Origin: an uncultured Akkermansia sp. | GTDB lineage: Bacteria > Verrucomicrobiota > Verrucomicrobiia > Limisphaerales > UBA9464 | Assembly: GCA_964430505.1 (NCBI GenBank) | Contig: CAYSGH010000010.1 | Location: forward strand, 13,959-77,958 | Length of the DNA: 64,000 nt | Direction of reading: 5' to 3' | Shown here: positions 33,158 through 55,992 of the stretch, piece after piece | Layout: every line of letters starts with the position of its first letter | Numbering within the stretch: the stretch's first letter is position 1 | Notes under the pieces: model-generated | Database searches by the model: none | What the model was told of the DNA's origin: nothing | The model's input: only the letters and a program-made list of their open reading frames with translations | Translations under genes and position numbers: made by a program

Positions 33158-33898
33158 TCAGACCCCGCGCGCAACCGTCCAGACCACCGCTTCGCGGGCC
33201 CCGGCCCTTCGCAGGATGGAGGCGACCGCGTCCGTCGTCGCGCCCGTCGTCAGGACGTCGTCCACCACGATCCAGGACGTGCCCTCCAGCCGGGGACGTC
33301 CGCACGGGAAGAACGCCCGGCGGACGTTCGCGGCGCGTTGCTCGCGCGACAGGGTCGTCTGCGAGTCCGTCGGGACGCGCCGCACCACCAGGTCCGTCCG
33401 AACGGGCAACCCCAGCGGCCGCGCCAGGATCCGTGCCAAGCGCTCGGCCTGGTTGAACTCGCGCTCGCGTTGCCGCACCGGATGCAGCGGCACGGGCACG
33501 ATGCCCGCCCAGGGCGCGGAGCCGAGGTCCGCCAAGGCCGCCGGGAGCCAGAGATCCCGAAGGAACGGCTCCAGCCACAGCGCGCCGCCGTACTTGTACA
33601 GGTGGATCGCCTGGCGCACGGGGCCGTCCACCTCCACCGCCGCGCGTGCCCGGGAAAAAGCGAGGTCAACCCCGGAGCAGTTCGGGCACTCGAAGGCGTG
33701 CGTGATGGCCCCGGCAAACGGCAGCCCACAACGGTCGCAGGAAGGGCCCGTGATCGGCCGCACACGGGCACGGCATTCATCGCACACAAAACCCTGTGCC
33801 GACGTGGCATGACGCTCGTGGCAAAGCTGGCAGCGCTCCGGGAAAACAAGGCTCAAGGCCGCGCGGGCGGCGGCCTGGATGGCAAGTCGTGGCTTCAT
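33158..33898 (-). CDS. ComF-family phosphoribosyltransferase-domain protein
   Basis: N-terminal zinc-finger pattern CQLCH...CDEC...CDRCG...CPNC and the PRTase motif IVVDDVLTTGATT. ATG 33898 (MKPRLAIQ...). Confidence 0.85.
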   Translation of the reverse strand: MKPRLAIQAAARAALSLVFPERCQLCHERHATSAQGFVCDECRARVRPITGPSCDRCGLPFAGAITHAFECPNCSGVDLAFSRARAAVEVDGPVRQAIHLYKYGGALWLEPFLRDLWLPAALADLGSAPWAGIVPVPLHPVRQREREFNQAERLARILARPLGLPVRTDLVVRRVPTDSQTTLSREQRAANVRRAFFPCGRPRLEGTSWIVVDDVLTTGATTDAVASILRRAGAREAVVWTVARGV

Positions 33899-34120
33899 GG
33901 GCTCGGCCCCGCACCCGGGGCGTCGAACTCCACGGTGGCGCACGGGGACGCCCGGCGCGAGGGCCCTTCCCATGGCCGTCAGTCATCGCCCTCACGACGT
34001 TGGTTGCCAGCGGTTTTCCCGCCGCCACGCGGGCCTTGAGCCACCGCCGTCCGCCGCGAGCCCATGGAATCCATCCTTGCCGGGCTGACGTCCGGGCGGT
34101 TAGACGTCCGCACCTTGACC

Positions 34121-37298: not shown

Positions 37299-40200
37299 AT
37301 GAATCCCGAAGTCCGCACACCGTCCGGCATCCGGGACAACCACCAACGTGGGACCGTCGGGAACTTTCTGCGTCATCACCTGAGACCGGGAGCCGACCTC
37401 GATCTCGTCACCGCCTACTTCACCGTGTACGCCCATGACCGGTTGAAGTCGGAGCTGGCATCCTTGGGACGCGTTCGTCTCCTCTTTGGGGAGGCCGCCT
37501 TCATCCACACGCTCGACCCGGGCAGGAAGGACGGGGCCGCCTACGTGCTCACCGACGATGGCCTTTCGCTTCCTGCGGGCCTCTCCCAGCGGCACGTCGC
37601 CCGCGCCTGCGCCGACTGGATCCGCGAACGGGTGGAGGTTCGGTCGGTCACGCGCACGGGATTCCTCCACGGCAAGATGTCCCACGTGCGACGCGGCGAG
37701 TTGTCCGCCGCCATTGTGGGCAGCTCCAACTTCACCACGCGCGGCCTCGGGCTCGCCGAGGCCAACAACAACGTGGAGTTGAACCTCGTGGTGAGCGACG
37801 ACCGCGACCGCATGGACCTCGCCACGTGGTTCGAGGAGCTTTGGAACGACCCCGCCCGCGTGGAGGACGTGAAGGCCCGCGTCCTGGAATACCTGTCGCA
37901 GGTCTATCGCGACCAACCCCCCGAGTTCATCTACTTCAAGACGCTGTTCCACCTCTTCAAGCCGTTCCTCGAAAGCGGCACCGACCTCGACGCGGCTCTC
38001 CAGCGGACCACGCTGCTGGAGGCGGCGATCTGGAAGGCCCTGTTCTCCTTCCAGAAGGACGGCGCAAAGGCCGCCATCAACAAGCTGCGCGAGCACGGCG
38101 GATGCATCCTCGCGGACAGCGTCGGACTCGGGAAAACCTTCGAGGCCCTCGCAGTCATCAAGTACTTCGAGCTGAAGAACGAGCGCGTCCTTGTGCTCTG
38201 CCCCAGGAAGCTGGCCGACAACTGGCTCATCTACCGCCAGAACAGCGCCCTCAACCCCTTCGAGAAGGACCGGTTCCGCTACGACGTCCTGCACCACACC
38301 GACCTCTCGCGCGAGTCCGGCCTCTCCAACGGCATCGACCTCGCCTCCCTCAACTGGAGCAACTACGACCTCGTCGTCATCGACGAGTCCCACAACTTCC
38401 GCAACAACACCGTCGGCCCCAAGGGCGACGATGGCCAACCCGTGCGGCGCACGCGTTACGAGCGGCTCATCGAGGACATCATCGGCAAGGGCATTCGCTC
38501 CAAGGTCCTGCTCCTCTCCGCCACCCCGGTCAACAACGAGCTCGCCGACCTCCGCAACCAAATCTCCTTCATCGCAGGTGGCGACGTCGCCCGGGATCCC
38601 AGGGTGGACGCCGCCTTCGCAACCACGCTCGGCGTCCGCAGCCTCAAGGCCACCACCCGCGACGCCCAGGTCCGCTTCACCACGTGGGCCAAGCGCCCCC
38701 CGAACGAACGCGACAAGAAGGACCTCATCCATGTTCTGGGCGGAGACTTCCTCAAGCTCCTCGACGCCCTCACCATTGCCCGGTCCCGCCGCCACATCGC
38801 CACCCATTACGAGGCGGAGATGAAGCGGCTGGGCGGCTTTCCTAAGCGCCTTCCGCCCGCGTCCATCCACTCGGAGATCGACTCGGCGGGGGCCTTCCCC
38901 AGCTACGACGACGTCGCGGCCAAGCTGGACCAGTACAAGCTGTGGCTATTCCGGCCCTCGGAGCACTTGCGCCAGGACCTGCCCCGGGACACGCGGGACG
39001 CCTACGAGCGGCGCATCGGCGGGTTCACCCAGCAAGGCCGCGAGCGCATCCTGACCGGCATGATGCGCGTCAGCCTCCTCAAGCGCCTCGAAAGCTCCAT
39101 CGACTCCTTCCGCATCTCCCTCCGGCGGATGCTGGGGAAGATCGAGCATCTGGAGGCCCGGATGGCGCGCTTCGAGAAGTTCCAGCAGGAGAACCCCAAC
39201 CTCGACCACGACACGCTCGGCCCCGAGGAGCTGGATGACCCCGAGCTGGCGGAGGCCCTGGAGGTGGGCCGCCGGACCACCTTCAAGATGGCCCACCTCG
39301 ACCTCGACCTGTGGCGCGTCCACCTGGCAGACGACCGCCTTCAGCTCAGCGCCTTGCTCCTGCTGGCCGAGCCCATCCATCCCAGCCGCGACGCCAAGCT
39401 CGCGGAGTTGAAGGCCCGGATTGCCAGCAAGGCCCGGAACCCCACCCTGGACAAGGACGGCCAGCCCAACCGCAAGGTCCTCGTCTTCACCGCCTACGCG
39501 GACACCGCCCGCTACCTGTACGACCAGTTGCACCCATGGGCCCGGCAGGAGCTGGGCCTCCATGCCTCATTGGTGGTGGGCAGTGGCGAGAACGCATCCA
39601 CTTACACCGCCTCCACCAGCTTCACCGACGTGCTCCTCGACTTTTCACCCCGCTCCAAGCGGCGTGCCGAGCTTCGCGCAAAGCCCGATTCCGCAGAGGT
39701 GGACCTTCTCGTCGCCTCCGACTGCATCTCCGAGGGCCAAAACCTCCAGGACTGCGACACGGTCATCAATTACGACATCCACTGGAACCCCGTCCGCATC
39801 GTCCAGCGCTTTGGCCGCATCGACCGCATCGGATCCAAGGCCGTCTCCGTTCACCTCGTCAACTTCTGGCCCACCGCGCACCTCGACCGCTACATCAACC
39901 TCAAGCTGCGCGTGGAGGCACGCATGGCGCTGGTGGACCTCGCCGCCACCCAGACCGACAACCCCCTCGACGAGCAGCAGATCGAGGACCTCGTCACCGC
40001 CGACCTGCGCCTCCGAGACCGCCAGCTTGTCCGCCTCAAGGACGAGGTGCTCGACCTCGAAGACCTCGACGACGCCGTCACCCTGGCAGACTTCTCCCTC
40101 GACGACTTCCGCCTCGACCTCCTGCGGTACCTGGAGGCCAACCGTGCGCGGCTCGAACAGGCTCCTTCGGGGCTTTACGCCGTGGTGCCCTCGGTGGCCT

Positions 40201-40649
40201 CCATTCCCATCGCCCAACCCGGGGCCATCTTCTGCCTGCGCCACAAAGGCGGCGAGTCCGCCGCCAAGAACGACAAGGTCAACCCGCTCAATCCGCACTA
40301 CCTGGTGTATGTCCATGCCGACGGCCAGGTGCGGATGACGTTCACGCAGTCCAAGTCCGTCCTGAACCTGTGTCGCGAGCTGGCGCTCGGGAAGACGGAA
40401 CCCTACGCGGAATTCTGCCGCCTGTTTGACCGTCAGACCGAGCAGGGGAGCAACCTGTGCGCCTACGATGACATGCTGCGCAGCGCCGTGACGTCGATCA
40501 CCGCGACGTTCCAACAGAAGCTCGCCGCCGGTTTGCAGAGTGGACGCCAGTTCATCCTGCCCACGCTGGAAGAACAGGTGGCCGCCGATTCAGAGTTCGA
40601 GCTGCTCACTTGGCTCGTGATCCTGTCACCGGCGTCGCCCGGCACCTGA
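37299..40649 (+). CDS. PLD-family (single HKD) nuclease domain fused to a SNF2-type SF2 helicase
   Basis: HKD motif GFLHGKMSHV...AIVGSSNFTTRGLG. SNF2 motifs ILADSVGLGKTFEALAV (I), DLVVIDESHNFRN (II), LLLSATPVNN (III), DCISEGQNLQDC...DIHWNPVRIVQRFGRIDRIGS (V/VI). ATG 37299 is preferred over TTG 37284. Confidence 0.9.
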   Translation: MNPEVRTPSGIRDNHQRGTVGNFLRHHLRPGADLDLVTAYFTVYAHDRLKSELASLGRVRLLFGEAAFIHTLDPGRKDGAAYVLTDDGLSLPAGLSQRHVARACADWIRERVEVRSVTRTGFLHGKMSHVRRGELSAAIVGSSNFTTRGLGLAEANNNVELNLVVSDDRDRMDLATWFEELWNDPARVEDVKARVLEYLSQVYRDQPPEFIYFKTLFHLFKPFLESGTDLDAALQRTTLLEAAIWKALFSFQKDGAKAAINKLREHGGCILADSVGLGKTFEALAVIKYFELKNERVLVLCPRKLADNWLIYRQNSALNPFEKDRFRYDVLHHTDLSRESGLSNGIDLASLNWSNYDLVVIDESHNFRNNTVGPKGDDGQPVRRTRYERLIEDIIGKGIRSKVLLLSATPVNNELADLRNQISFIAGGDVARDPRVDAAFATTLGVRSLKATTRDAQVRFTTWAKRPPNERDKKDLIHVLGGDFLKLLDALTIARSRRHIATHYEAEMKRLGGFPKRLPPASIHSEIDSAGAFPSYDDVAAKLDQYKLWLFRPSEHLRQDLPRDTRDAYERRIGGFTQQGRERILTGMMRVSLLKRLESSIDSFRISLRRMLGKIEHLEARMARFEKFQQENPNLDHDTLGPEELDDPELAEALEVGRRTTFKMAHLDLDLWRVHLADDRLQLSALLLLAEPIHPSRDAKLAELKARIASKARNPTLDKDGQPNRKVLVFTAYADTARYLYDQLHPWARQELGLHASLVVGSGENASTYTASTSFTDVLLDFSPRSKRRAELRAKPDSAEVDLLVASDCISEGQNLQDCDTVINYDIHWNPVRIVQRFGRIDRIGSKAVSVHLVNFWPTAHLDRYINLKLRVEARMALVDLAATQTDNPLDEQQIEDLVTADLRLRDRQLVRLKDEVLDLEDLDDAVTLADFSLDDFRLDLLRYLEANRARLEQAPSGLYAVVPSVASIPIAQPGAIFCLRHKGGESAAKNDKVNPLNPHYLVYVHADGQVRMTFTQSKSVLNLCRELALGKTEPYAEFCRLFDRQTEQGSNLCAYDDMLRSAVTSITATFQQKLAAGLQSGRQFILPTLEEQVAADSEFELLTWLVILSPASPGT

Positions 40650-40660
40650 TCGCCGCGCCC

Positions 40661-42181
40661 ATGGTCGCCAAGCAGTCCATCTTCATCAGCTCCGTCCAGA
40701 AGGACCTGGCCGCCGAGCGCCGGGCCCTGAAGGACTTCGTGCAGGGCGATCCCTTGCTCCGCCAATTCTTCGAGGTGTTCCTGTTCGAGGACTTGCCGGC
40801 CTCGGACCGCCGCGCCGACGAGGTCTATCTGGCCGAGGTGGACCGCTGCGCCCTCTACGTCGGCCTGTTGGGCAACGAATACGGCCGTGAGGACGCGGCC
40901 GGGATTTCGCCCACCGAACACGAGTTCAACCGGGCGACCGCCGCGGGCAAGCCCCGCTTCATCTACGTCCGGGGCACGGATGACTCCGCCCGCCATCCCA
41001 AGATGCGGGCGCTCGTGCGCCGGGCCGGGGACCAGCTCATCCGACGGCGTTTCAGCGGCATCGCTGAACTCAATGCTGCCGTTTACTCCAGCCTGGTGGA
41101 GCTGCTCGGCCACCGGGGAATGCTCCGCACGGTGCCGTTTGATGCAGCAGCCTGCCCCGGGGCCACGCTGGCCGACATGGTGCCTGACAAGGTTGGGGCG
41201 TTTCTGGCCCGGGCCGGCCACACGCGCGGCTACGCGCTGGCGCCCGGCACCCCCATGTCCGACGCCCTGACGCACCTGAACCTGCTCGACGGGGAGACGC
41301 CCAATCACGCCGCCCTGTTGCTGTTTGGCCGGGACCCGCAGCGCTGGCTCATTTCCTCGGCCGTGAAGTGCCTGCATTTTCACGGCGCCGAAGTGCGCAA
41401 GCCGATCCCCTCCCACCAGGTGTATCGCGGCACCGTGTTCGATCTCGTGGACCAGGCGGTGGACTTCGTGATGTCCAAGGTCGCCCGTTCGGTCGGCACC
41501 CGGGCCGCCTCCAATGCCGTCCCGGTCGCCTACGAACTGCCCCGCGAGGCGGTGGCCGAAGCCATCGTCAACGCCGTGGCCCACCGCGACTACGCCTCCA
41601 ACGCCTCCGTGCAGGTCATGCTGTTCGCCAACCGCCTGGAAGTGTGGAATCCCGGCGAACTGCCCGCCTCGCTGACCCCCGAGCGACTCACCCGTCCCCA
41701 TGCGTCCATTCCGCGGAATCCGCTGCTGGCCGGACCGCTGTTCCTCGCGGGCTACATCGAGCAGGCCGGCACCGGCACGCTCGACATGATTGCCCGCTGC
41801 CGCGACGCGGGACTACGGGCGCCGGAATTCCACCAGGATGGCGCCAGCTTCATCCAGACTCTCTGGAGACCGGCACCGGAAGTCAGCCCACAGGATACAG
41901 GGCAAGTCACGGGGCAAGTCACGGGGCAAGTCACGGGGCAAGTCAGCCGGGAAGTGGAGCGCCTGCTCCGCGTGTTGGACGGCGAGATGACGCGGTTGGA
42001 AATCCAGGAACGCCTCGACCTCAAAGGCCGGGCCAACTTCGAGGAACGCTATCTCCAGCCAGCGCTTCAGGGAGGCCACGTTGAACGCACCATTGCCGAC
42101 AAGCCCCAAAGCCGCCTCCAAAGATACCGCCTCACCGCCCAGGGCCGCGCCTGGCGGGTGAGCCAATCCAAGAGCACCTGA
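40661..42181 (+). CDS. DUF4062-like N-terminal domain fused to a RecG-like ATP-binding (HATPase_c_4) / winged-helix putative regulator
   Basis: N-terminal SIFISSVQKDLAAERRALKDFV...EVYLAEVDRCALYVGLLGNEYG (DUF4062-like). Middle AALLLFGRDPQRWL...KCLHFHG. EAIVNAVAHRDYASNASVQVMLFANRLEVWNPG...IEQAGTGTLDM (HATPase_c_4-like). (GQVT)x4 linker. C-terminal RLEIQERLDLKGRANFEERYLQPAL wHTH-like tail. Confidence 0.8.
   Translation: MVAKQSIFISSVQKDLAAERRALKDFVQGDPLLRQFFEVFLFEDLPASDRRADEVYLAEVDRCALYVGLLGNEYGREDAAGISPTEHEFNRATAAGKPRFIYVRGTDDSARHPKMRALVRRAGDQLIRRRFSGIAELNAAVYSSLVELLGHRGMLRTVPFDAAACPGATLADMVPDKVGAFLARAGHTRGYALAPGTPMSDALTHLNLLDGETPNHAALLLFGRDPQRWLISSAVKCLHFHGAEVRKPIPSHQVYRGTVFDLVDQAVDFVMSKVARSVGTRAASNAVPVAYELPREAVAEAIVNAVAHRDYASNASVQVMLFANRLEVWNPGELPASLTPERLTRPHASIPRNPLLAGPLFLAGYIEQAGTGTLDMIARCRDAGLRAPEFHQDGASFIQTLWRPAPEVSPQDTGQVTGQVTGQVTGQVSREVERLLRVLDGEMTRLEIQERLDLKGRANFEERYLQPALQGGHVERTIADKPQSRLQRYRLTAQGRAWRVSQSKST
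41900..41947 (+). repeat. In-frame 12-nt tandem repeat (gggcaagtcacg x4) encoding (GQVT)4
   Basis: Four consecutive units read directly from the sequence. The last unit is degenerate (gggcaagtcagc). Confidence 0.92.
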
Positions 42182-42188
42182 TTTCCTC

Positions 42189-42404
42189 ATGCCTTCCCAT
42201 CCCGAGCTTCTGCCGCGGACCAAGTCCGCCCTTGGCGCTGGCGACCGCCGGCTTCGGTGTGCCGTGACCTCAAGCATCGCGACGTCCCCGCAGAAGCTCG
42301 CCGCAGGGTTGCCGAGCCGCCGCCCGTTCCTCCTGCCCACACGGGACAAAAAGGTGGCAGCCGATTCCGAGTTTGAGCTGCTGACCTGGTTCCTCATTCT
42401 CTAG
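42189..42404 (+). pseudogene. 71-codon ORF whose last 47 codons are a diverged duplicate of the helicase C-terminus (relic or small helicase-tail protein)
   Basis: 42261-42401 aligns codon-for-codon with 40485-40625 (AVTSSIATSPQKLAAGLPSRRPFLLPTRDKKVAADSEFELLTWFLIL versus AVTSITATFQQKLAAGLQSGRQFILPTLEEQVAADSEFELLTWLVIL). By hand, 33 of 47 codons are identical. Confidence 0.5.
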
Positions 42405-42475
42405 CCATGAGACCCGCCGACATGAGCATGGGCTCCCAAGTCACTCACATCCCTACACACAAGCAGTAAGGTCTC

Positions 42476-45400
42476 ATGCCCGACCCAAACTTCCGACAAC
42501 AGCTTGCGGATGCTCTTTCCGACTTTGCCCGCGCGCCCTTGGCCGAGGCTTCGACCACGTTCTTCGGCAAGCTCGGCTACGGCAGCAAGCGGCGTCTCCA
42601 GTTTCCTTCGCTGACGGGGCTGCTCGCACAGTTCGACACGTCTGGCAGCGTGGCGGAAAAGCTGCCCAAGACTGGCTCCAAGAGCCCGGTCACCGTGGTG
42701 CAACTTACCAGTGAAGAAATCGCCGCAAACTCCGGTGGACAGTTGGCTTCGCTTGCCGGCAGCGGAGCCGACCTTCGCCAGATCGAGTCTTACCTCTTCC
42801 TCACGATTGCCCTGCCGGAATCGGACTACACCCGCACTCAACTGGCGGACTACGCCCGCGCCATTAATTCGCTGTTTCCCCAGCCGGTTCTCGTCCTGTT
42901 CCAGCACGGCGGGACAATCTCGTTGGCGATCACCTACCGGCGCACCAACAAGCGCGATGCTTCTCGGGATGTTATCGCCCGGAAGGTCACGCTCATCCGC
43001 GATATTGCCTGCGCTCAACCGCACTCCGGCCACCTTGCGATTCTCGAAGACTTCTCGCTTCCTGCACTATCCCGTGCCCGCCAACGCGACATCCGTAGTT
43101 TCGCCGACCTCGACGACGCCTGGCGCGAATCGCTTTCCACGCAGCTTCTCAATCGGGAGTTCTACCGCGAAATCGCCAACTGGTATTTCTGGGCGCGCGA
43201 ACACGCGATCTTTCCGAAGGACGCTCCGCTCGACGCCGACGGCAAGCCTTCGCTTCCGCTAATTCGACTGCTGACCCGCCTGATCTTCTGCTGGTTTCTG
43301 CGCGAGAAGTCGCTCCCCGGACTCGGCACGCTTATCCCGGCGGACTTGTTCGATTCGGCCTGCATCCGCCGTTTCCTGCGCGATTCCTCGCCGGAGGCCA
43401 CCACCTATTACACCGGCATCCTCCAGAATTTGTTTTTTGCGACTCTCAACGCCGAGATGGACGAGCCGGGCCGGCCGCAGAAGCGCCACTTTATCGGCGA
43501 AGGGGAGGAGGACGAGGCGGATGAGCACTTCAACGCCGCCGTCTGGCGCAACAAAAGGCTGCTGGCCAAGGATGCCGAAACGGAGGTTGAAACGCTCTTC
43601 CGACGCATTCCCTTCCTCAACGGCGGTCTCTTTGAATGCCTCGACGAACCCGTCTTCGACCAGAAGGGCAAGAAGACCGGCGAAAAACGCGTGGACGGTT
43701 TCTCAACCAAACCTTCCAAGCAGGCGAGGGTTCCCAATTTCCTCTTCTTTGGTCCCGACCAAACCGTGGACCTGTCCGGCACCTACGGCGACAGCTCGCG
43801 GCGGCAGGAAACCGTCAGGCCATTGCTGGAGATCTTTCGCGGCTACAAATTCACCCTCACCGAAAACACGCCCATCGAGGAAGAAGTCGCGCTGGACCCT
43901 GAGTTGCTTGGCCACGTTTTCGAGAACCTCCTCGCCGCCTTCAATCCCGAGACCGGAACCATCGCCCGAAAGGCCACCGGTTCCTTCTACACGCCGCGAG
44001 TCGTGGTGGACTGGATGGTGGACGAAGCCCTTGTCGCCTACCTCACCGGGCGCGTTCCCGCTGCGACCGAAGCGCAAGTTCGCGACCTGCTTTCATGGGA
44101 ACGCGACACGCATGAGATCCCTCCCGAGACCGTTTCTTCCCTGGTTGACGCAGTGGACTCGCTCAAGTCGCTCGACCCCGCGTGTGGTTCGGGTGCTTTC
44201 CCAATGGGACTGCTGCAAAAGCTGGTTCACCTCCTCCGCAAGCTTGACCCCAACAACAAACAATGGCGTGCGCGGCAACAGGCTGCGGTCGAGGCGATGG
44301 ATAGTTCCACCGCGAGGGAGGTGGCGTTCGCCGCCTTGGAAAAGGCGTTCGCCCACGACGAGGACGACTATGGTCGCAAGCTCTACCTCATCGAGAACTG
44401 CCTCTACGGCGTGGACATCCAACCCATCGCCGTCCAGATAGCGAAGCTGCGGTTCTTCATCGCCCTCGTTGTCGAGCAAACCATCGCGCCTGACCGGTTC
44501 AACTACGGCATCCTTCCGCTGCCCAACCTCGAAACGAAGATTGTCGCAGCCAACACACTCCTGGGGCTGCGGCGCGGCCAGCTCATGCTGGGATCGAATG
44601 AAGTCCGCTCCCTTGAGGGACAGCTTCAACGTGTGCGCCATGACTACTTCACCGCACGTCGCTACACGGACAAGAAGGCGCTGCGAACGCGTGATCGTGA
44701 ACTCTGCCGCAAATTGGCCACGGCGCTGGCCAGCAGCGGCGAATGCTCGCCTGCCGACGCACAGCGCCTGGCCGACTGGAATCCCTATGACACCAACCGC
44801 GAGGCTCCGTTCTTCGACCCGGGCTGGATGTTCGGCCTTGCGGTCGGCCGACAGCGCCCCAGCGCGGCGACACTGCGCGGCAACCTGGCCGCCATCGTCA
44901 ACCGGACGGCGGGGCAGATGGAGTTGGGCGCTGCGCCTCCGCCCGATCCGGGCTTCGACATCATCCTGGGCAACCCGCCTTATGTCCGTCAGGAGGAGCT
45001 GAAAAACGTGAGCGTAACAGACAGCGCTGGCCGCCCGCGCCCGCTCAAGGAGGTGCTCAAGGAGCAATACGAATGCTTCACCGGCACCGCCGACCTCTAC
45101 GTCTATTTCATCGAGCGCTCCCTCCAGCTCCTCCGCATCGGCGGCGTCCTCAGCTTCATCACCAGCAACAAGTACTTCCGCGCCGCCTATGGCGAACGCC
45201 TTCGCGCCTACCTCCTCTACGCAACCCGCCCGCGCGTGCTCCTCGATTTCGGCGACGCCCCGCTCTTCACCGCCATCGCCTATCCCTGCATCCTCGTGGT
45301 GCAAAAGACCCGCGCCTTGGAAAAGGGCGGGCTGCCTCCAACGGATAAATTCCAAAACGAGACGACCTTCCGCCAGCTCATCTCAGACGAGGCGGCGGCC

Positions 45401-46588
45401 TCGAAGATCCGAGTCTTCCCGTGGACGCCAGGCCCGCCACTCCGCGACTTCCCGGCGATCTTTGAAGAGAAAAGTTTCAATCTCGAACAACGCGAGCTGA
45501 AACCCGGTGGGTGGAAGTTCCAATCGGATGCAAACCGAAGTGTTCGGCGACGAATGGAGCAGGGATCGAACCCCCTCGGCAAATTTACGGGCGATTTAGT
45601 GATTAATGGGGTTAAGTCAGGCGGCAAAGACGCATTCGTGCTTTCTACTAAGGAACGGGATGCCCTGCTAAAGCTTGAGCCGCAGGCCGGGCGCATCGTC
45701 CGTCGCCTGCTCAAGGGCAGAGACATTAAGCGATGGTGCGTAACTGAGGAAGATCGGTGGCTAATTTACATGCCTTGGCATTTTCCATTGAACGATGACG
45801 CGACAATTACCCGCGCCAGCAAGAAGGCAGAAGATGAGTTCAAAGCAAAGTATCCGGCGACCTATGCTCATCTTGCGCAGTTCAAGGATATGTTGTCGGC
45901 GCGAGACCAAGCGGAGACTGGAATTCGCTATGAGTGGTATTGCTTAGCCCGACCGCGGCCGGAAGCTGAGCCGTTCTTCTCAAAGCCTAAAATTGCTTTC
46001 CCAGATATCGCTGCTGCGCCGTGCTTCGCTTGGGATGAGGGTGACCACGCTATTGAAAACACTGCATATTTGATCCCAGGCAATAAGTGGATTCTTGGCG
46101 TGCTGAACTCGCCGGCAGTATTTTGGTATTGCCTTCAAATCAGCAACACAATTCGTGGCGGCTACGTTCGCTTCATTCGCCAGTATGTGGAACAAATTCC
46201 CATTCCAACAGCAAGCGCCGAGGAACAACAGTGGTGCGAGCGATTGGCGGAAGCGTTGATTTTCCTGCACCGCCCGGAAGTGGCCGCTGGGGCGGGGGCC
46301 GCGCCGGTGAGCCTGATGGCCGCGTGGTTCGAGCAGTGGCTGAACGGGCTGGTCTATGAGCTTTTCTTCCGCGCGGAGCTCCACGCTCGCCACCTCCGCC
46401 TCTTCGAGGAAACCGCCAAACCCACCAGCGCCCCGCCCGCCCTTGCCCCGCTACGCGACGACCCCGCGAAGCTCGCCGCTCTCCAAGCCTGCTTCGAGCG
46501 GACCTACGACGTCAACCACCCCCTCCGGGCCATGCTCTTCTCCCTCCGCTCCCTCGAACCCATCCGCATCATCGAAGGCGAGGCATGA
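42476..46588 (+). CDS. Large gamma-class N6-adenine DNA methyltransferase (Eco57I/PglX/DrmMI-like) with a C-terminal target-recognition region
   Basis: Motif I LDPACGSGAFPMGLL (about residue 566) precedes motif IV ILGNPPYVRQEE (about residue 831). Eco57I-type YVYFIERSLQLLRIGGVLSFITSNKYF. TaqI_C-like LKGRDIKRWCVTEEDRWLIYMPW. 1370 aa. Confidence 0.9.
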   Translation: MPDPNFRQQLADALSDFARAPLAEASTTFFGKLGYGSKRRLQFPSLTGLLAQFDTSGSVAEKLPKTGSKSPVTVVQLTSEEIAANSGGQLASLAGSGADLRQIESYLFLTIALPESDYTRTQLADYARAINSLFPQPVLVLFQHGGTISLAITYRRTNKRDASRDVIARKVTLIRDIACAQPHSGHLAILEDFSLPALSRARQRDIRSFADLDDAWRESLSTQLLNREFYREIANWYFWAREHAIFPKDAPLDADGKPSLPLIRLLTRLIFCWFLREKSLPGLGTLIPADLFDSACIRRFLRDSSPEATTYYTGILQNLFFATLNAEMDEPGRPQKRHFIGEGEEDEADEHFNAAVWRNKRLLAKDAETEVETLFRRIPFLNGGLFECLDEPVFDQKGKKTGEKRVDGFSTKPSKQARVPNFLFFGPDQTVDLSGTYGDSSRRQETVRPLLEIFRGYKFTLTENTPIEEEVALDPELLGHVFENLLAAFNPETGTIARKATGSFYTPRVVVDWMVDEALVAYLTGRVPAATEAQVRDLLSWERDTHEIPPETVSSLVDAVDSLKSLDPACGSGAFPMGLLQKLVHLLRKLDPNNKQWRARQQAAVEAMDSSTAREVAFAALEKAFAHDEDDYGRKLYLIENCLYGVDIQPIAVQIAKLRFFIALVVEQTIAPDRFNYGILPLPNLETKIVAANTLLGLRRGQLMLGSNEVRSLEGQLQRVRHDYFTARRYTDKKALRTRDRELCRKLATALASSGECSPADAQRLADWNPYDTNREAPFFDPGWMFGLAVGRQRPSAATLRGNLAAIVNRTAGQMELGAAPPPDPGFDIILGNPPYVRQEELKNVSVTDSAGRPRPLKEVLKEQYECFTGTADLYVYFIERSLQLLRIGGVLSFITSNKYFRAAYGERLRAYLLYATRPRVLLDFGDAPLFTAIAYPCILVVQKTRALEKGGLPPTDKFQNETTFRQLISDEAAASKIRVFPWTPGPPLRDFPAIFEEKSFNLEQRELKPGGWKFQSDANRSVRRRMEQGSNPLGKFTGDLVINGVKSGGKDAFVLSTKERDALLKLEPQAGRIVRRLLKGRDIKRWCVTEEDRWLIYMPWHFPLNDDATITRASKKAEDEFKAKYPATYAHLAQFKDMLSARDQAETGIRYEWYCLARPRPEAEPFFSKPKIAFPDIAAAPCFAWDEGDHAIENTAYLIPGNKWILGVLNSPAVFWYCLQISNTIRGGYVRFIRQYVEQIPIPTASAEEQQWCERLAEALIFLHRPEVAAGAGAAPVSLMAAWFEQWLNGLVYELFFRAELHARHLRLFEETAKPTSAPPALAPLRDDPAKLAALQACFERTYDVNHPLRAMLFSLRSLEPIRIIEGEA

Positions 46589-48582
46589 GAATTACGCGAA
46601 TCGTCCTAAACGACTTCCGGGGATTTCCGGGGCAGGCCAATTTCGAATTCCGGCTTGATGGCAGTAACCTACTGCTCTTCGGCGAAAATGGGAGCGGCAA
46701 ATCCTCGCTGTTCGTCGCGCTGCGCGAATTCTTCGACCTCAGAATGAATCCGGCACCTTTCGGCCGGTTTCGCAACGTTTTCACGCGTGATGCGACTGGC
46801 CAACCGCTGACTTGTGGAAGGGTCGGTGTGGAGTTCGACGACGGCACGGGGTTGCACACATGGGACATCGTGAACGATGTGCGACCGCACGCCGCGCAAC
46901 CGGTAGCCGATACCGCACTGCGCTTTGGAGCGGTTGATTACCGCGCGATGCTGAAGACGAACTTCGTCCATGAAAGCGGCTATCCGAACCTATTCGACTT
47001 GCTGGTGAACGGGGTCCTGAACCGGATGCCCGTGTTGGTGGCAGGCGGTGCTCAAACCACATTGGGAGATCTCGATGCGCGGATGAGGGCCGCGAAGCCT
47101 GAACGGCATTACCCTAGTCAACTTGCCAAAGTCGATGCCGCATGTCTTGCGCTCAACCAAGCGCTGCAAAATCACCTCCCGCAGGTCGTCGCCACAGCGA
47201 ACCAGATTCTCTCTGTGTTTGGAAACATCGGAGTCACGTTTCAGCTCATTCCTCCACCACTCCCGGTGAACCCACCGCAGGATCCCGCTCCAGCCAATCC
47301 ACCCCACCTTCGCTACGATCGGGCAGCCCGGAACTTCAAGAACATGAAGATTGACTTCGTGGCGCAACTCAATGGCCATGGCCCTGACGAGCCTCAGCAC
47401 TTTCTCAACGAGGCGCGACTGTCCGCAATTGCGATCTCGATCTATCTGGCGGCGCTGCGGGCAAGCATGCCTCCCAATCCCGTCGGCGCGAATCCGCCCG
47501 CGAAAGTCATGCTACTGGACGATGTTCTCATCGGCCTCGACATGTCGAATCGCCAACCGATCCTCGACGTTCTTACCCGAGTTGATCGCCCGAATGCACC
47601 GGGATTCGCTGATTGGCAGGTGCTCCTGCTTACCCACGATCAGGGATGGTATTCACTTGCTCGCAGGCGACTCAGGAACTGGCGCGCGGTGCGCCTCGCA
47701 TCAGGCCACAGTGGAACCTACGACGTGCCGATCCTCTATGACGACACGTCTCTAATTGAACGTGCTGTGCATCATCTTAACGTCTCCGGCGATGAACGCG
47801 CCGCAGGAGTGTATCTGCGAACCGCGTTTGAGGAGATGATTAAGTCGTTTTGCGCCCGGACGCGAACCCCAGTCGCTTACCACCGGGCTGATGAGCACCC
47901 GAAGTCGACCAATGTATTCTGGCAACCGATCTGCGCCGTCAAGGTAGGACGCGTACTTTTGATCGATGCTGGATTGAAACGGGACGTGGAATCAGCCCGC
48001 AGCAATGTCGCCAACCCGTTGTGCCATTTCGGGAACAGTATGCCATTGTACAGCGAGACGGTGAGCGCGATTTCCATCCTGCGTCGGCTACAAATTCGAC
48101 TTGATTCGTATCCAGACAAAAATGCTGATCCGCCACAGCACCCTCGCACTGCGCTGGATTTGGCGCAGGAGGCCTGCGCGGCGGCGGCCAATTTTTCCCC
48201 TTGGACTGCCGCTGTCCACTTGAGATCGGCTTTCGACGATTCCGTTTCTAGGCTGGCAGCAAGGTGGAGCGTCCAAGTGACTTACTCCATCAACTTGTTG
48301 GACTTTGCGACACAGCGCCTTTGGAACCTGCTGCGGCAAGCTCCCAGCGGCCTAGCAACGACTCATGCAACACACGTTGCCGGCATACACGCGCACTCGG
48401 ATATTTTTCTTCAAGAGTTGGATCCAACCGCCATAGCTCGACGCAATCAGGGCTACTTCCAATCAGCTCTTTTAGCTTTGCTCCATTCGGGAACTCCTGT
48501 GCCCGGCCTTCCGTCTCCTGGCTTAAGTTCGGCAACGGCTGCGTCATCTTCGTCTACAACGTGGCTAGATGCTGTTCCGTAA
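46585..48582 (+). CDS. ABC-type (AAA_13/PrrC-RloC-like) ATPase with an unassigned C-terminal domain of about 300 aa
   Basis: The ATG overlaps the MTase stop (ATGA at 46585-46588). Walker A LFGENGSGKSSLF, signature-like FLNEARLSAIAISIYLAAL, Walker B/D-loop VMLLDDVLIGLDMSNR, H-loop VLLLTHDQGWY. The C-terminal half has YLRTAFEEM and NVANPLCHFGNS. Confidence 0.8.
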   Translation: MRITRIVLNDFRGFPGQANFEFRLDGSNLLLFGENGSGKSSLFVALREFFDLRMNPAPFGRFRNVFTRDATGQPLTCGRVGVEFDDGTGLHTWDIVNDVRPHAAQPVADTALRFGAVDYRAMLKTNFVHESGYPNLFDLLVNGVLNRMPVLVAGGAQTTLGDLDARMRAAKPERHYPSQLAKVDAACLALNQALQNHLPQVVATANQILSVFGNIGVTFQLIPPPLPVNPPQDPAPANPPHLRYDRAARNFKNMKIDFVAQLNGHGPDEPQHFLNEARLSAIAISIYLAALRASMPPNPVGANPPAKVMLLDDVLIGLDMSNRQPILDVLTRVDRPNAPGFADWQVLLLTHDQGWYSLARRRLRNWRAVRLASGHSGTYDVPILYDDTSLIERAVHHLNVSGDERAAGVYLRTAFEEMIKSFCARTRTPVAYHRADEHPKSTNVFWQPICAVKVGRVLLIDAGLKRDVESARSNVANPLCHFGNSMPLYSETVSAISILRRLQIRLDSYPDKNADPPQHPRTALDLAQEACAAAANFSPWTAAVHLRSAFDDSVSRLAARWSVQVTYSINLLDFATQRLWNLLRQAPSGLATTHATHVAGIHAHSDIFLQELDPTAIARRNQGYFQSALLALLHSGTPVPGLPSPGLSSATAASSSSTTWLDAVP

Positions 48583-48991: not shown

Positions 48992-49171
48992 TCCTGTCGC
49001 TCCGGCACGCCGGGCTTGCCATCTCGCGTGGGTGGGCCTTCATGCTCGCATCGGGCCGTTGCGCGCGGGGCGTGACGGCCCGCCGGGCGAAGTATTTCCT
49101 AACAAAGGCCCGCCTCGTGCGTCATCCGAAGGGGCGCGGCAGGGGCGGCGCGCCCGGAAATGGGAACGAGC

Positions 49172-55654: not shown

Positions 55655-55770
55655 GGGTTTTGTGATGCATGGGGCCCAGGACCCTCATGGGGCTCATCGG
55701 GCGTTTCGCGCCTCCGATCCTTCCCTGCCTCGCGCTTGCAGCCGCACCCTGCTCCTGCGATCCAACGCTC

Positions 55771-55992
55771 GTGGATTCCACCTCCAAGCGAGAGTTCAGC
55801 GTCATCGTGGAACGAGACGCGGACGGGTACTACATCGCGACCGTCCCCGGCCTGCGCGGTTGCCATACCCAGGCTCGTTCCTTGGACCAGCTTCAGGAGC
55901 GAATCCGAGAGGCCATCGAGCTATGCCTCGAATCGGAGGATGAGCGCCTCCCTGCCTGTGAGTTCATCGGGGTCCAACGGGTCGCCCTTTAG
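55771..55992 (+). CDS. hicB: HicB-family (UPF0150) antitoxin-like protein
   Basis: EFSVIVERDADGYYIATVPGLRGCHTQARSLDQLQERIREAIELCLE is a typical HicB N-domain. GTG 55771 gives a 73-aa product. The track start at 55669 adds an implausible 34-aa leader. Confidence 0.7.
   Translation: MDSTSKREFSVIVERDADGYYIATVPGLRGCHTQARSLDQLQERIREAIELCLESEDERLPACEFIGVQRVAL

What the first reader, a model, noticed from the sequence alone, without database searches (positions are those of the whole stretch)
37299..48582. RM-like island: PLD-SNF2 helicase-nuclease + giant N6A methyltransferase + coupled AAA_13-like ATPase, which fits no named defence system I can recall
The genes are co-directional and tightly packed.

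- Gene (i), 37299..40649, has a single HKD phospholipase-D nuclease motif (FLHGKMSHV...GSSNFT) fused in front of a SNF2 helicase core.
- Gene (ii), 42476..46588, is a 1370-aa gamma-class adenine methyltransferase (DPACGSGAF then NPPY) with an Eco57I/TaqI_C-type recognition tail.
- Gene (iii), 46585..48582, is an ABC ATPase whose ATG overlaps the methylase stop.

I see no classical restriction endonuclease or S subunit, so this is not type I. There is no Res/Mod pair, so it is not type III. There is no PglZ or BrxC, so it is not BREX. PLD + SNF2 + N6A-MTase equals the DrmC/DrmD/DrmMI parts of class 1 DISARM. However, the DISARM core DrmA/DrmB (DUF1998) is absent from the window, and here PLD and SNF2 are a single polypeptide. 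The extra ATPase and an inserted DUF4062 gene add candidate sensor/effector modules. The locus also has lower G+C than its surroundings. The working hypothesis is a methylation-guarded, translocase-driven nuclease system with an attached NTPase effector.
Basis: partly seen in the sequence, partly recalled or inferred. Interest (0 to 1): 0.85.

Follow-up and report, generated by a model that had tools for sequence, protein, structure and literature searches.

The report
Helicase-nuclease, methylase, PrrC-like ATPase defence triad
This is a real three-gene, restriction-modification-like anti-phage system (a motor-nuclease, a large adenine methylase that also reads the DNA target, and an ATPase that probably carries a latent RNase); it is conserved in the same gene order across many bacterial phyla, yet I could find no name or experimental study for it.

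Summary
Window 37299-48582 encodes:
- an HKD(PLD)-SNF2 protein of 1116 aa;
- a DUF4062 gene;
- a 1370-aa gamma-class N6A methylase with a TaqI_C recognition domain;
- a 665-aa ABC ATPase whose ATG overlaps the methylase stop codon.

I scanned one genome per species with the ATPase family. Of 66 loci with enough upstream DNA, 57 have the methylase upstream and 50 have the full order HKD-SNF2, methylase, ATPase. Neighbouring genes often overlap by 4 nt. The hosts span at least 10 phyla.

New points:
- The ATPase C-terminus folds like HEPN. Its invariant R-x3-E...H triad (78/78 sequences) has the pattern of the anticodon nuclease PrrC.
- The ATPase's constant partner is the TaqI_C domain plus its tail. 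That partner also occurs as a stand-alone protein and fused to TIR-TPR.
- The methylase has no conserved nuclease residues, so it is not Type IIG.
- The DUF4062 gene is an embedded single-gene NADase defence (Swarozyc/Evangelion type).
- The methylase-ATPase pair is compositionally foreign to the helicase (GC3 0.62-0.74 against 0.90).

DISARM, BREX, MANTIS/Gao_RL, Hma, ARMADA and Pbe each fail on a defining component. Verdict: a new variant of the BREX/DISARM-related methylation-based systems. Interest 0.62.

The parts
37299..40649 (+). HKD(PLD)-SNF2 motor-nuclease, 1116 aa. It has a single HKD motif (H124/K126 at 37662-37688; GSSNFT at 37719-37736), an SNF2 core (~38040-39878; Walker A K279, DESH 362-365, motif VI 836-846) and a conserved C-terminal domain.
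   Evidence: Pfam PLDc_2, SNF2-rel_dom and Helicase_C. PADLOC 'HKD+Snf2' PDLC01075 at 9e-123. NCBIfam DrmD scores 154 bits, below the 610 cut-off. Homologues lie upstream of the methylase in 50/66 loci, and 49 of those carry HxK...GSxN. Clade-B homologues also hit PLDc_2.
40661..42181 (+). Embedded accessory gene, 506 aa. It has a DUF4062 (TIR-like NADase) core (SPTEHEF at 40907-40927), HATPase_c_4 and a Fic-like_C winged helix, with a (TGQV)x4 linker at 41897-41944. It is not a core subunit.
   Evidence: Pfam. DUF4062 is described as a single-gene NADase defence. A homologous gene is inserted at varying positions in only a few loci: L023, L060, L066, L081, L090, L098.
42476..46588 (+). Modification and specificity subunit, 1370 aa. 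Its regions are a DUF4391-like N-terminal domain (~42773-43165), an MmeI/PglX-type helical region (~43148-44035), a gamma-class N6A methylase (motif I 44174-44200, NPPY 44972-44983) and a TaqI_C recognition domain plus conserved helical tail (~45563-46585).
   Evidence: Pfam Eco57I and TaqI_C. DUF4391 is below threshold in 5 of 6 clade-A N-terminal regions, and MmeI_hel is weak. PDB profile hits: CamA and M.BseCI at E-47/E-45, BrxX/PglX at E-15. There is no invariant D/E/K in aa 1-220 of 22 homologues. The recognition domain is the most divergent segment between close relatives.
46585..48582 (+). ABC ATPase with a C-terminal tandem HEPN-like region, 665 aa. The ABC head is at 46585-47739 (Walker A 46681-46707, signature-like 47401-47427, Walker B 47509-47541, H-loop 47623-47640). 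HEPN-like domain 1 is at 47740-48114 (R412, E416, K420 at 47815-47844; N477..H481 at 48013-48027). HEPN-like repeat 2 is at ~48142-48489. The ATG overlaps the methylase stop codon.
   Evidence: Alignment A1. AF2 model with pLDDT 84; Foldseek best hits are SMC/Rad50 heads. The C-terminal model has pLDDT 86, and its best compact hits are HEPN proteins, with E>1. R412, E416 and H481 are invariant in 78/78 sequences. The PrrC triad is R320-x3-E324...H356.
42182..42475 (.). Intergenic spacer of 294 nt, where the composition changes between the HKD-SNF2/DUF4062 module and the methylase/ATPase module. It is a probable module junction and internal promoter region.
   Evidence: GC and GC3 per gene. In most other loci the SNF2 stop overlaps the methylase start by 4 nt, so this spacer and the DUF4062 gene are insertions relative to the common layout.

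Best explanation
The locus is a three-component, ATP-dependent, methylation-based restriction system. It belongs to the broad group built on an SNF2 helicase plus a PglX-like N6-adenine methylase (DISARM class 1, BREX type 3, ARMADA, MANTIS and other BREX-related systems).

Proposed roles:
- The 1370-aa protein recognises a short, probably asymmetric, DNA site through its single TaqI_C domain. It marks host DNA by m6A. It has no nuclease of its own.
- The HKD-SNF2 protein is the restriction arm. Two copies pair their single HKD motifs into one PLD active site. SNF2-driven translocation couples recognition of unmethylated sites to DNA cleavage.
- The ABC ATPase is translationally coupled to the methylase and docks on its TaqI_C domain and tail. 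Its HEPN-like C-terminus carries a PrrC-type Arg-Glu-His triad. I propose it is an NTP-gated RNase held latent by the methylase complex. It would fire when that complex is inhibited by phage anti-restriction proteins, or when it engages foreign DNA, stopping translation as a second strike.
- The DUF4062 gene between helicase and methylase is an independent embedded NADase defence.

What is shown: the domain content, intact motifs, conserved gene order and coupling, the invariance of the triad, and the portability of the TaqI_C-plus-ATPase pair.

What is inferred: methylation as the self mark, DNA cleavage by HKD-SNF2, RNase activity and the guard logic.
For: Component identities:
- Pfam, PADLOC and NCBIfam assignments.
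- Catalytic motifs are intact.

Conservation:
- The ATPase profile retrieved 80 species-level loci.
- Of 66 loci with at least 7.5 kb upstream, 57 have the methylase core upstream and 50 have SNF2 upstream of it; 49 of those carry an HKD motif.
- 4-nt start/stop overlaps are frequent at both junctions.
- No other gene is conserved in the neighbourhood.
- The triad also occurs in metagenome and viral contigs in unrelated contexts.

Methylase:
- The methylase lacks a nuclease. There is no invariant acidic or lysine residue in aa 1-220 and no nuclease family hit.
- Its recognition domain diverges fastest: 50% identity against 87% for the catalytic core in the closest relative. This is expected for a specificity determinant.

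ATPase:
- The model has an SMC/Rad50-like head.
- The best compact Foldseek hits for the C-terminal domain are HEPN proteins: 1o3u prob 0.92, 1wol 0.85, 2q00, 4nqf, HepT, Csm6.
- R412, E416 and H481 are invariant in 78/78 sequences, as conserved as the Walker residues. K/R420 gives the HEPN E-x3-K/R motif.
- The PrrC catalytic triad is R320-x3-E324...H356, and PrrC is genetically linked to a type Ic RM enzyme.
- The same ATPase family sits downstream of a stand-alone TaqI_C protein and of TIR-TPR-TaqI_C proteins that have no methylase domain. Its primary role therefore cannot be loading a methylase.

Precedent for an HKD-SF2 dimer as the restriction arm of a methylation-based system: MtsD of MANTIS.
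Against: - There is no experimental evidence for any activity.
- The HEPN assignment is weak statistically. All Foldseek E-values are above 1. There is no Pfam, PADLOC PrrC/RloC or PDB sequence match to the C-terminal domain. The canonical R-x4-6-H motif is replaced by N-x3-H.
- In MANTIS, the second ATPase is required for methylation itself, so a loader or regulator role is a live alternative.
- The two modules differ in composition and have different nearest relatives, so their co-operation in this particular genome is assumed.
- A sizeable minority of loci lack HKD-SNF2 in the upstream 10 kb (16/66; in two of them, L011 and L078, HKD-SNF2 lies downstream instead).
Confidence: 0.55

Rival explanations
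1. Dual-ATPase model, as in MANTIS and BREX. The ABC ATPase is a DNA loader or regulator needed for methylation and for licensing restriction, playing the part of MtsA or BrxC. Its helical C-terminus is a non-catalytic docking or nucleic-acid-binding domain.
For: - MANTIS needs its AAA+ ATPase to load the methylase and to license the HKD-SF2 nuclease.
- The ATPase head resembles the DNA-clamping SMC/Rad50 heads.
- It is translationally coupled to the methylase.
- The HEPN assignment is statistically weak.
Against: - The R/E/H triad is invariant in 78/78 sequences and has PrrC spacing, which suggests catalysis.
- The same ATPase pairs with TaqI_C proteins that have no methylase domain, in 13/66 loci and on a Nostoc plasmid.
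- ABC and DUF499 AAA+ ATPases are unrelated folds.
Confidence: 0.2
2. The locus is a juxtaposition of independent systems, not one system. The parts would be a stand-alone HKD-SNF2 nuclease (Type IV-like, as SauUSI), a methylase that is an orphan or Type IIG-like enzyme, and a two-gene TaqI_C-plus-ABC abortive module that happens to be fused to the methylase.
For: - The modules differ in GC3 and in nearest relatives.
- The TaqI_C-plus-ABC pair exists without helicase or methylase.
- The HKD+Snf2 family has its own PADLOC model from another context.
- Defence genes commonly embed in one another.
Against: - The order SNF2, methylase, ATPase recurs in 50/66 loci across many phyla, with 4-nt overlaps at both junctions.
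- A modification-dependent nuclease next to an active methylase would be self-toxic.
- No nuclease residues are conserved in the methylase.
Confidence: 0.15
3. It is a degenerate or split member of an already named system (class 1 DISARM, BREX, MANTIS/Gao_RL or Hma) whose missing core genes lie elsewhere in the genome.
For: PADLOC gives partial hits to DrmD, DrmMI, PglX, HmaA and BrxHII. The SNF2 plus PglX-like methylase dyad is shared with DISARM, ARMADA and BREX type 3.
Against: - All NCBIfam scores are far below the cut-offs: DrmD 154 against 610, PglX 53 against 500.
- No DrmA/B, PglZ, BrxC, DUF499, DUF3780 or YprA was found in the proteins scanned in the window or as a recurring neighbour in 80 loci.
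- The ATPase is consistently ABC-type.
Confidence: 0.05

Closest known systems
MANTIS (Gao_RL; Type-2 DUF499-centred BREX-related system)
   Same: It is a methylation-based defence with an N6-adenine methylase that carries the target-recognition domain. Its restriction arm is an HKD/PLD nuclease fused to the N-terminus of an SF2/SNF2 ATPase. It has a second ATPase.
   Different: - The second ATPase there is a DUF499 ORC/Cdc6-type AAA+ (MtsA) with a small DUF3780 partner (MtsB). Here it is an ABC ATPase with a HEPN-like tail, and there is no DUF3780.
- The methylase here is Eco57I/TaqI_C (PglX/IIG-like) with a DUF4391-like N-terminus.
- The helicase is only distantly related: NCBIfam 'phospholipase D-like anti-phage protein' scores 129 bits against a cut-off of 1100.
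PrrC - EcoprrI (anticodon nuclease embedded in a type Ic RM locus) and RloC
   Same: Both have an ABC NTPase N-domain plus a C-terminal helical RNase-type domain with an Arg-x3-Glu...His triad. The gene lies next to the specificity determinant of a restriction-modification system. The proposed role is a latent second-strike effector.
   Different: - The partner here is a single-chain methylase with a TaqI_C domain plus an HKD-SNF2 nuclease, not HsdMSR.
- The family is not detected by the PADLOC PrrC/RloC models.
- Many members, including this one, carry two tandem HEPN-like domains.
- RNase activity is untested.
Class 1 DISARM, ARMADA and BREX type 3
   Same: All share a dyad of an SNF2 (RapA/BrxHII-like) helicase and a large PglX-like N6A methylase. 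DISARM also has a PLD nuclease, DrmC.
   Different: There is no DrmA/DrmB (DUF1998) and no YprA helicase, and BrxC and PglZ are also absent. PLD is fused to the helicase. The third component is ABC-HEPN-like.
PbeABCD / CxC-ABC ATPase-centred systems
   Same: They combine an HKD nuclease fused to an SF2 helicase with an ABC ATPase, and sometimes with DNA methylases.
   Different: The ABC there has a long coiled coil with a CxC zinc hook and an obligatory DndE-like partner, and the methylases are cytosine-specific. Here the insert is a single ~36-residue helix, there is no DndE, and the methylase is N6A. The PbeC hit covers only the N-terminus.
Type IIG/IIL restriction-modification enzymes (Eco57I, MmeI)
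   Same: They share the helical spacer, the gamma-class N6A methylase and the TaqI_C-type recognition domain in one chain. The best PADLOC model is REase_MTase_IIG at 1.7e-77.
   Different: No N-terminal PD-(D/E)XK nuclease is present: there are no invariant D/E/K residues in aa 1-220 and no nuclease family hit. The nuclease is supplied in trans by HKD-SNF2.

Membership tests
Class 1 DISARM | DrmA (helicase with DUF1998) and DrmB core genes | tested here: not met
   There is no DUF1998 or DrmB hit among the proteins scanned with Pfam or PADLOC. The DrmA hit on gene i covers only the generic helicase C-domain. No such gene recurs in 80 related loci.
Class 1 DISARM | DrmD SNF2 helicase and DrmMI methylase at family level | tested here: not met
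   NCBIfam DISARM_DrmD scores 154.5 bits against a cut-off of 610. The PADLOC DrmMI hit at 1.4e-29 is partial, against 1.7e-77 for the IIG-type model.
BREX | PglZ phosphatase and BrxC ATPase; PglX methylase | tested here: not met
   There is no PglZ or BrxC hit in the window. NCBIfam PglX models score 47-53 bits against cut-offs of 400-900.
MANTIS / Gao_RL / Type-2 BR | DUF499 AAA+ ATPase (MtsA) and DUF3780 protein (MtsB) | tested here: not met
   The proteins scanned in the window give no DUF499 or DUF3780 Pfam hit. The ATPase model is an ABC head resembling SMC/Rad50.
MANTIS / Gao_RL / Type-2 BR | N-terminal HKD nuclease fused to an SF2/SNF2 helicase, plus an N6A methylase | tested here: met
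   PLDc_2, SNF2-rel_dom and Helicase_C in gene i; Eco57I/NPPY methylase in gene ii. The match is in kind only, because the family-level score is far below cut-off.
Hma / Type-1 BR | SNF2 helicase with a C-terminal PD-(D/E)XK nuclease (HmaA), a methylase (HmaB; called m5C-type in the PADLOC paper, and N6-adenine in the later BR-systems paper) and a DUF499 ATPase (HmaC) | tested here: not met
   Here the nuclease is an N-terminal HKD, the methylase is N6A and the ATPase is ABC. The HmaA hit at 4e-25 is partial.
Type IIG restriction-modification enzyme | Endonuclease domain in the same polypeptide as the methylase and recognition domain | tested here: not met
   In 22 homologues there is no invariant D/E/K in aa 1-220. 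The only family signal there is DUF4391, below threshold. PDB profile hits start at the methylase core. A structure of the N-terminus was not predicted.
PrrC/RloC-type ABC-HEPN restriction RNases | ABC NTPase N-domain with Walker A/B, signature and H-loop | tested here: met
   The motifs are invariant in 78 sequences. Foldseek matches SMC/Rad50 heads at E 1e-10.
PrrC/RloC-type ABC-HEPN restriction RNases | C-terminal catalytic Arg-x3-Glu...His triad in a HEPN-fold domain | tested here: inconclusive
   The triad pattern is present and invariant in 78/78 sequences (PrrC triad). HEPN proteins are the best compact structural matches, but with E>1. There is no sequence-profile match to PrrC/RloC or HEPN models.
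PrrC/RloC-type ABC-HEPN restriction RNases | tRNA anticodon-loop cleavage, latent until the linked restriction system is inhibited | not testable with these tools
   This requires biochemistry or infection assays.
PbeABCD / CxC-ABC systems | CxC zinc-hook coiled-coil ABC ATPase with a DndE-like partner | tested here: not met
   The model shows only a single 36-residue helix as the insert. No DndE-like conserved neighbour was found. The PbeC hit is limited to residues 1-46.
ARMADA | YprA-like (DUF1998-type) helicase with a Vsr nuclease | tested here: not met
   No such gene is present in the window or as a recurring neighbour in related loci.
Swarozyc / Evangelion (DUF4062 NADase defence) - for the embedded gene only | DUF4062 TIR-like core plus an auxiliary sensor region in a single gene | tested here: met
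   Pfam DUF4062 scores 74.9 bits against a cut-off of 24.7. The auxiliary region is HATPase_c_4 plus Fic-like_C. NADase activity and the catalytic Glu were not verified.

The most novel reading that the evidence does not exclude
The TaqI_C domain with its tail, together with the ABC-HEPN-like ATPase, is a portable sensor-effector cassette. In it, a DNA sequence-recognition domain borrowed from restriction-modification enzymes gates a PrrC-like RNase. The cassette plugs into different front ends:
- a methylase with an HKD-SNF2 nuclease, as here;
- TIR-TPR proteins;
- nothing at all.

The triad would then be a previously unnamed defence family in which DNA restriction and translation shut-off are hard-wired through one recognition domain.
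Probability: 0.3. Interest if true: 0.8.

Novelty: new variant of a known kind. Interest (0 to 1): 0.62.

Why it matters
Methylation-based defences beyond classical restriction-modification (BREX, DISARM, MANTIS, MADS, ARMADA) are being dissected now. A central open question is how extra ATPases couple self-marking to restriction.

This triad is a widespread alternative solution:
- About 1,000 ATPase clusters at the 50% identity level match at E<=1e-30.
- The full triad is present in 50 of 66 informative species.
- The hosts include cultured Agrobacterium, Shinella, Acidiphilium, Geomobilimonas and Geminisphaera strains.

It uses an ABC ATPase with a PrrC-like triad instead of an AAA+ ATPase. 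If the guard model holds, the PrrC paradigm (an RNase held latent by a restriction enzyme) would extend beyond type I systems. It would also show that a TaqI_C recognition domain can serve as the docking or sensing element.

In practical terms, current annotation would label the methylase as a 'Type IIG' enzyme and leave the nuclease and ATPase unassigned. Defence inventories would therefore under-count or mis-type these loci.

Tried and rejected
Searches that found nothing:
- Pfam on the ATPase C-terminal region of five family members, at E up to 10, gave nothing relevant.
- A PDB sequence-profile search with a C-terminal-domain alignment gave only chance TPR-like hits.
- PADLOC on the C-terminal halves gave only weak mad3 and LmuB hits, and no PrrC or RloC.
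- The plasmid collection gave only one hit, although it was informative: the Nostoc two-gene module.
- No tRNA gene occurs in the window, and no integrase turned up among the ORFs I scanned, so no mobile-element boundary could be drawn.

Foldseek with the full-length ATPase is dominated by the ABC head, so the tail had to be modelled alone.

Candidate components and systems rejected:
- The upstream topoisomerase, the DZR-PRTase gene and the 2164-aa downstream ORF are not part of the system. None recurs in 80 loci.
- A search for a fourth conserved gene found only clade-specific extras.
- MADS is rejected. Its mandatory MAD6-8 are absent and MAD2 scores 25 bits against a cut-off of 720.
- The label 'Schlafen' for the DUF4062 gene is rejected, because there is no AlbA_2/Schlafen hit.

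Unresolved:
- The origin of PADLOC model 'C3a139 HKD+Snf2' could not be traced. It is not in the UG/Abi reverse-transcriptase paper.
- Krishnan et al. 2020 on ABC ATPases is not held in the library.

Full report
**Observation.** The window is about 69% G+C and comes from a Verrucomicrobiota metagenome-assembled genome. Exact-sequence look-ups place its proteins in clusters that NCBI names 'MAG... Verrucomicrobiota bacterium', and the flanking genes are typical DUF1501/DUF1549/DUF1553 genes. GC3 analysis and translation confirm four co-directional genes:
- HKD-SNF2, ATG 37299-40649, 1116 aa;
- a DUF4062 gene, ATG 40661-42181;
- a 1370-aa methylase, 42476-46588;
- a 665-aa ATPase, 46585-48582, whose ATG overlaps the methylase TGA (ATGA).

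These include FLHGKMSHV...GSSNFT, DPACGSGAF, NPPY and the Walker A motif. SNF2 motifs I, II, III and VI are also intact.

**Component identities.**
- Gene i: Pfam gives PLDc_2, SNF2-rel_dom and Helicase_C.
- Inserted gene: DUF4062, HATPase_c_4 and Fic-like_C.
- Gene ii: Eco57I and TaqI_C.
- Gene iii: only N-terminal SMC_N/AAA_23-type matches.
- PADLOC matches gene i almost end to end to a model described as 'HKD+Snf2' (9e-123). It matches gene ii best to Type IIG enzyme-methylase models (1.7e-77). It gives only partial hits to DrmD, DrmMI, PglX, HmaA and BrxH.
- NCBIfam scores are all far below the curated cut-offs: DrmD 154 against 610, PglX 53 against 500, 'phospholipase D-like anti-phage protein' 129 against 1100, MAD2 25 against 720. 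There is no model for gene iii.
- The other large window ORFs that I scanned hit no PADLOC model.

**Is the triad conserved?** Yes.
- The ATPase has about 1,900 detectable relatives in the word-indexed search. In the exhaustive search it matches 1,042 representatives of 50%-identity clusters at E<=1e-30.
- A 67%-identical homologue lies in a metagenome contig with the operon PLD-SNF2, Eco57I/TaqI_C methylase, a small ORF and the ATPase. It sits between ThiF/JAB genes upstream and GmrSD (with a HamA/Hachiman gene further on) downstream.
- An 81%-identical homologue follows the same methylase, and the C-terminus of the helicase is visible at the contig edge.
- A scan of one genome per species returned 80 loci. 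They come from Desulfobacterota, Cyanobacteriota, Poribacteria, Latescibacterota, Chloroflexota, Alpha- and Betaproteobacteria, Bacteroidota, Acidobacteriota, Planctomycetota, Chlorobiota and Verrucomicrobiota.
- Of the 66 loci with at least 7.5 kb upstream, 57 have the methylase core upstream on the same strand. In 38 it is immediately adjacent.
- 50 of the 66 have an SNF2 gene upstream of that, and 49 of those carry an HxK...GSxN motif.
- Pfam confirms PLDc_2 in the divergent 'clade B' helicases.
- The methylase stop and ATPase start overlap by 4 nt in most loci, and the SNF2 stop and methylase start do so in many.
- No further gene is conserved. The upstream topoisomerase, the PRTase and the giant downstream ORF of the window do not recur.
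- Several IMG/VR contigs also carry the full triad.

**The ATPase.**
- Alignment of 23 and then 78 family members shows invariant Walker A, signature-like (NEARLS), Walker B and H-loop residues. A roughly 120-residue helical domain follows.
- In that domain R412, E416 and H481 are invariant in 78/78 sequences, N477 in 76/78, and K/R420 in 66/78.
- The window protein and other long forms carry a second, degenerate copy of this domain. Compare LRSAFDD...IHAHSD with LRTAFEE...NPLCH.
- The AF2 model of the whole protein (pLDDT 84) matches SMC/Rad50 heads.
- The tail modelled alone (pLDDT 86) has HEPN-domain proteins as its best compact matches. These are TM0613 (prob 0.92, TM 0.63), ST0689 (0.85), 2q00, 4nqf, HepT, Csm6 and Csx1. 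All E-values are above 1.
- Sequence profiles find nothing for the tail.
- The triad has the composition and R-x3-E spacing of the catalytic triad of the anticodon nuclease PrrC (Arg320, Glu324, His356). PrrC is also an ABC NTPase fused to a C-terminal RNase domain and is genetically linked to a restriction enzyme.
- E416-x3-K420 also fits the E-x3-[KR] motif noted for HEPN domains.
- I therefore treat the tail as HEPN-like and probably catalytic. Formal membership remains inconclusive.

**The ATPase's partner.**
- In 13 of 66 loci the gene that overlaps the ATPase start is not a methylase. In the three Poribacteria examples I scanned (L010, L015, L016) it is a TIR-TPR-TaqI_C protein.
- On Nostoc plasmid pANSO36B it is a stand-alone 338-aa TaqI_C protein, with no methylase among the genes listed for the 12 kb on either side (the PLSDB gene table is incomplete).
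- The last ~340 residues of the window methylase align end to end with both partners: 29% identity at E 1e-45, and 33% at E 2e-56. The alignment runs through the shared C-terminal '...RIIEG' tail.
- The invariant association is therefore between the TaqI_C domain plus tail and the ATPase. This argues that the ATPase is not primarily a methylase loader.

**The methylase.**
- A 22-sequence alignment shows the MmeI/PglX-type helical motifs (FLNGGLF, DPELLG.VFE.LL, FYTP), motif I and NPPY.
- Residues 1-220 contain no invariant acidic or lysine residue.
- That region gives only below-threshold DUF4391 matches, in 5 of 6 clade-A proteins.
- The profile matches CamA and M.BseCI strongly, and BrxX/PglX and M.TaqI more weakly.
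- So this is a modification-plus-specificity protein, not a Type IIG enzyme, although current HMM sets would label it as one.
- Between the window and its closest relatives, the recognition domain is the most divergent segment. It is 50% identical to L003, where the catalytic core is 87% and the ATPase head 86%. For L006 the figures are 42%, 65% and 68%. This is as expected for a specificity determinant.

**Mosaic structure.**
- GC3 values are 0.95 (topoisomerase), 0.90 (HKD-SNF2), 0.85 (DUF4062), 0.74 (methylase), 0.62 (ATPase) and 0.93 (downstream ORF).
- HKD-SNF2 and the DUF4062 gene are most similar (61-73%) to those of Geminisphaera colitermitum TAV2, another verrucomicrobium with the same four-gene order.
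- The methylase and ATPase are only 30-42% identical to Geminisphaera's. They are 50-87% identical to those of a 57% G+C metagenome contig, whose G+C they match.
- The methylase-ATPase pair therefore looks like a cassette exchanged by horizontal transfer behind a resident helicase.

**The DUF4062 gene.**
- Three 2026 preprints show that DUF4062 is a TIR-like NADase. It forms single-gene abortive-infection defences (Swarozyc, Evangelion) made of a DUF4062 core plus a variable auxiliary region.
- The window gene has that layout.
- Related genes are inserted between different pairs of triad genes in only a handful of loci: L023, L060, L066, L081, L090 and L098.
- It is thus an embedded independent system. 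This pattern is documented for Hma, BREX, DISARM and type I RM loci.
- I found no Schlafen/AlbA_2 signal.

**Comparison with known systems.**
- MANTIS (Gao_RL; Type-2 BREX-related) is the closest in logic. It has an N6A methylase carrying the recognition domain, an HKD-SF2 dimeric nuclease and a second ATPase. It is defined by a DUF499 AAA+ ATPase and a DUF3780 protein, and both are absent here.
- Hma/Type-1 BR has a C-terminal PD-(D/E)XK nuclease on the helicase and a DUF499 ATPase.
- DISARM, ARMADA and BREX type 3 share the SNF2 plus PglX-like dyad. They need DrmA/B, YprA, or BrxC and PglZ respectively.
- PbeABCD/CxC systems combine an HKD-SF2 protein with an ABC ATPase. That ATPase has a zinc-hook coiled coil and a DndE partner.
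- PrrC-EcoprrI supplies the best analogy for gene iii.
- None of these is a membership match.

**Mechanism and confidence.**
- My best reading (0.55) is an RM-like triad. The methylase marks and reads sites. HKD-SNF2 dimers translocate and cut unmarked DNA. The ABC-HEPN-like protein, docked on the TaqI_C domain and tail, is a latent NTP-gated RNase acting as a second strike.
- A MANTIS-like loader or regulator role for the ATPase is the main rival (0.2).
- A mere juxtaposition of independent systems is less likely, given the conserved order and gene overlaps (0.15).
- Everything beyond domain content, conservation and coupling is inference.

**Novelty.**
- I found no name or experiment for this triad in PADLOC-DB v2, NCBIfam release 20, Pfam or the searchable literature.
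- RefSeq calls the components 'AAA family ATPase' and 'TaqI-like C-terminal specificity domain-containing protein'.
- I could not consult REBASE, the current DefenseFinder or Krishnan et al. 2020.
- I rate it a new variant of a known kind (methylation-based, BREX/DISARM-related restriction). Interest is 0.62. It is widespread, testable in cultured strains and informative for the question of how accessory ATPases and backup RNases are wired to restriction. It is not categorically new.

Noticed in passing
L010 6240-10004; L015 6582-10004; L016 7491-10004; L087 10988-13434: The same ATPase family is translationally coupled to partners that lack a methylase domain. In Poribacteria MAGs (L010, L015, L016) the partner is a TIR-TPR-TaqI_C protein. 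On Nostoc plasmid pANSO36B it is a stand-alone 338-aa TaqI_C protein, with no methylase among the genes listed nearby. This points to a portable two-gene TaqI_C-plus-ABC module that may be a defence system in its own right.
   Followed up: partly
window 40661-42181: The DUF4062 gene belongs to the recently described TIR-like NADase defence family (Swarozyc/Evangelion). Here its auxiliary region is HATPase_c_4 plus a Fic-like_C winged helix. It also has a perfect (TGQV)x4 linker repeat at 41897-41944.
   Followed up: partly
window 42182-48582 versus 37299-42181: There is a sharp step in codon composition inside the system: GC3 0.85-0.90 for the helicase and DUF4062 genes against 0.62-0.74 for the methylase and ATPase. 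The two halves also have different nearest relatives. This suggests cassette exchange of the specificity-plus-ATPase module. The Geminisphaera locus L081 shows the same kind of step.
   Followed up: partly
window 34064-36940: A topoisomerase (Topoisom_bac plus three Toprim_Crpt repeats) lies directly upstream of the helicase. NCBI names cluster mates 'DNA topoisomerase III', and it hits the PADLOC DpdF model at 5e-116. It is adjacent in close relatives (members of the same >=90%-identity protein clusters) but is not a conserved neighbour in other loci.
   Followed up: partly
window 49160-55654: A 2164-aa ORF with host-like codon usage (GC3 0.93) has no significant Pfam, NCBIfam or PADLOC match. 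It is followed by a HicB-like antitoxin gene (55669-55992) with no obvious HicA partner.
   Followed up: no
window 33158-33973 (- strand): A double-zinc-ribbon plus phosphoribosyltransferase protein (ComF-like) has weak PADLOC hits to the ShosT and PsyrT toxins (about 5e-8). It is not conserved next to the triad elsewhere.
   Followed up: no
window 42773-43165 (methylase aa ~100-230): The methylase N-terminal domain resembles the uncharacterised family DUF4391, below threshold in 5 of 6 clade-A homologues scanned. The library search found no functional study of DUF4391. It may be the interface to the helicase or a degenerate nuclease-like fold.
   Followed up: partly
PADLOC model PDLC01075: A PADLOC model named 'C3a139' and described as 'HKD+Snf2' matches gene i at 9e-123 over nearly its full length. 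I could not find which study or system that model comes from.
   Followed up: partly
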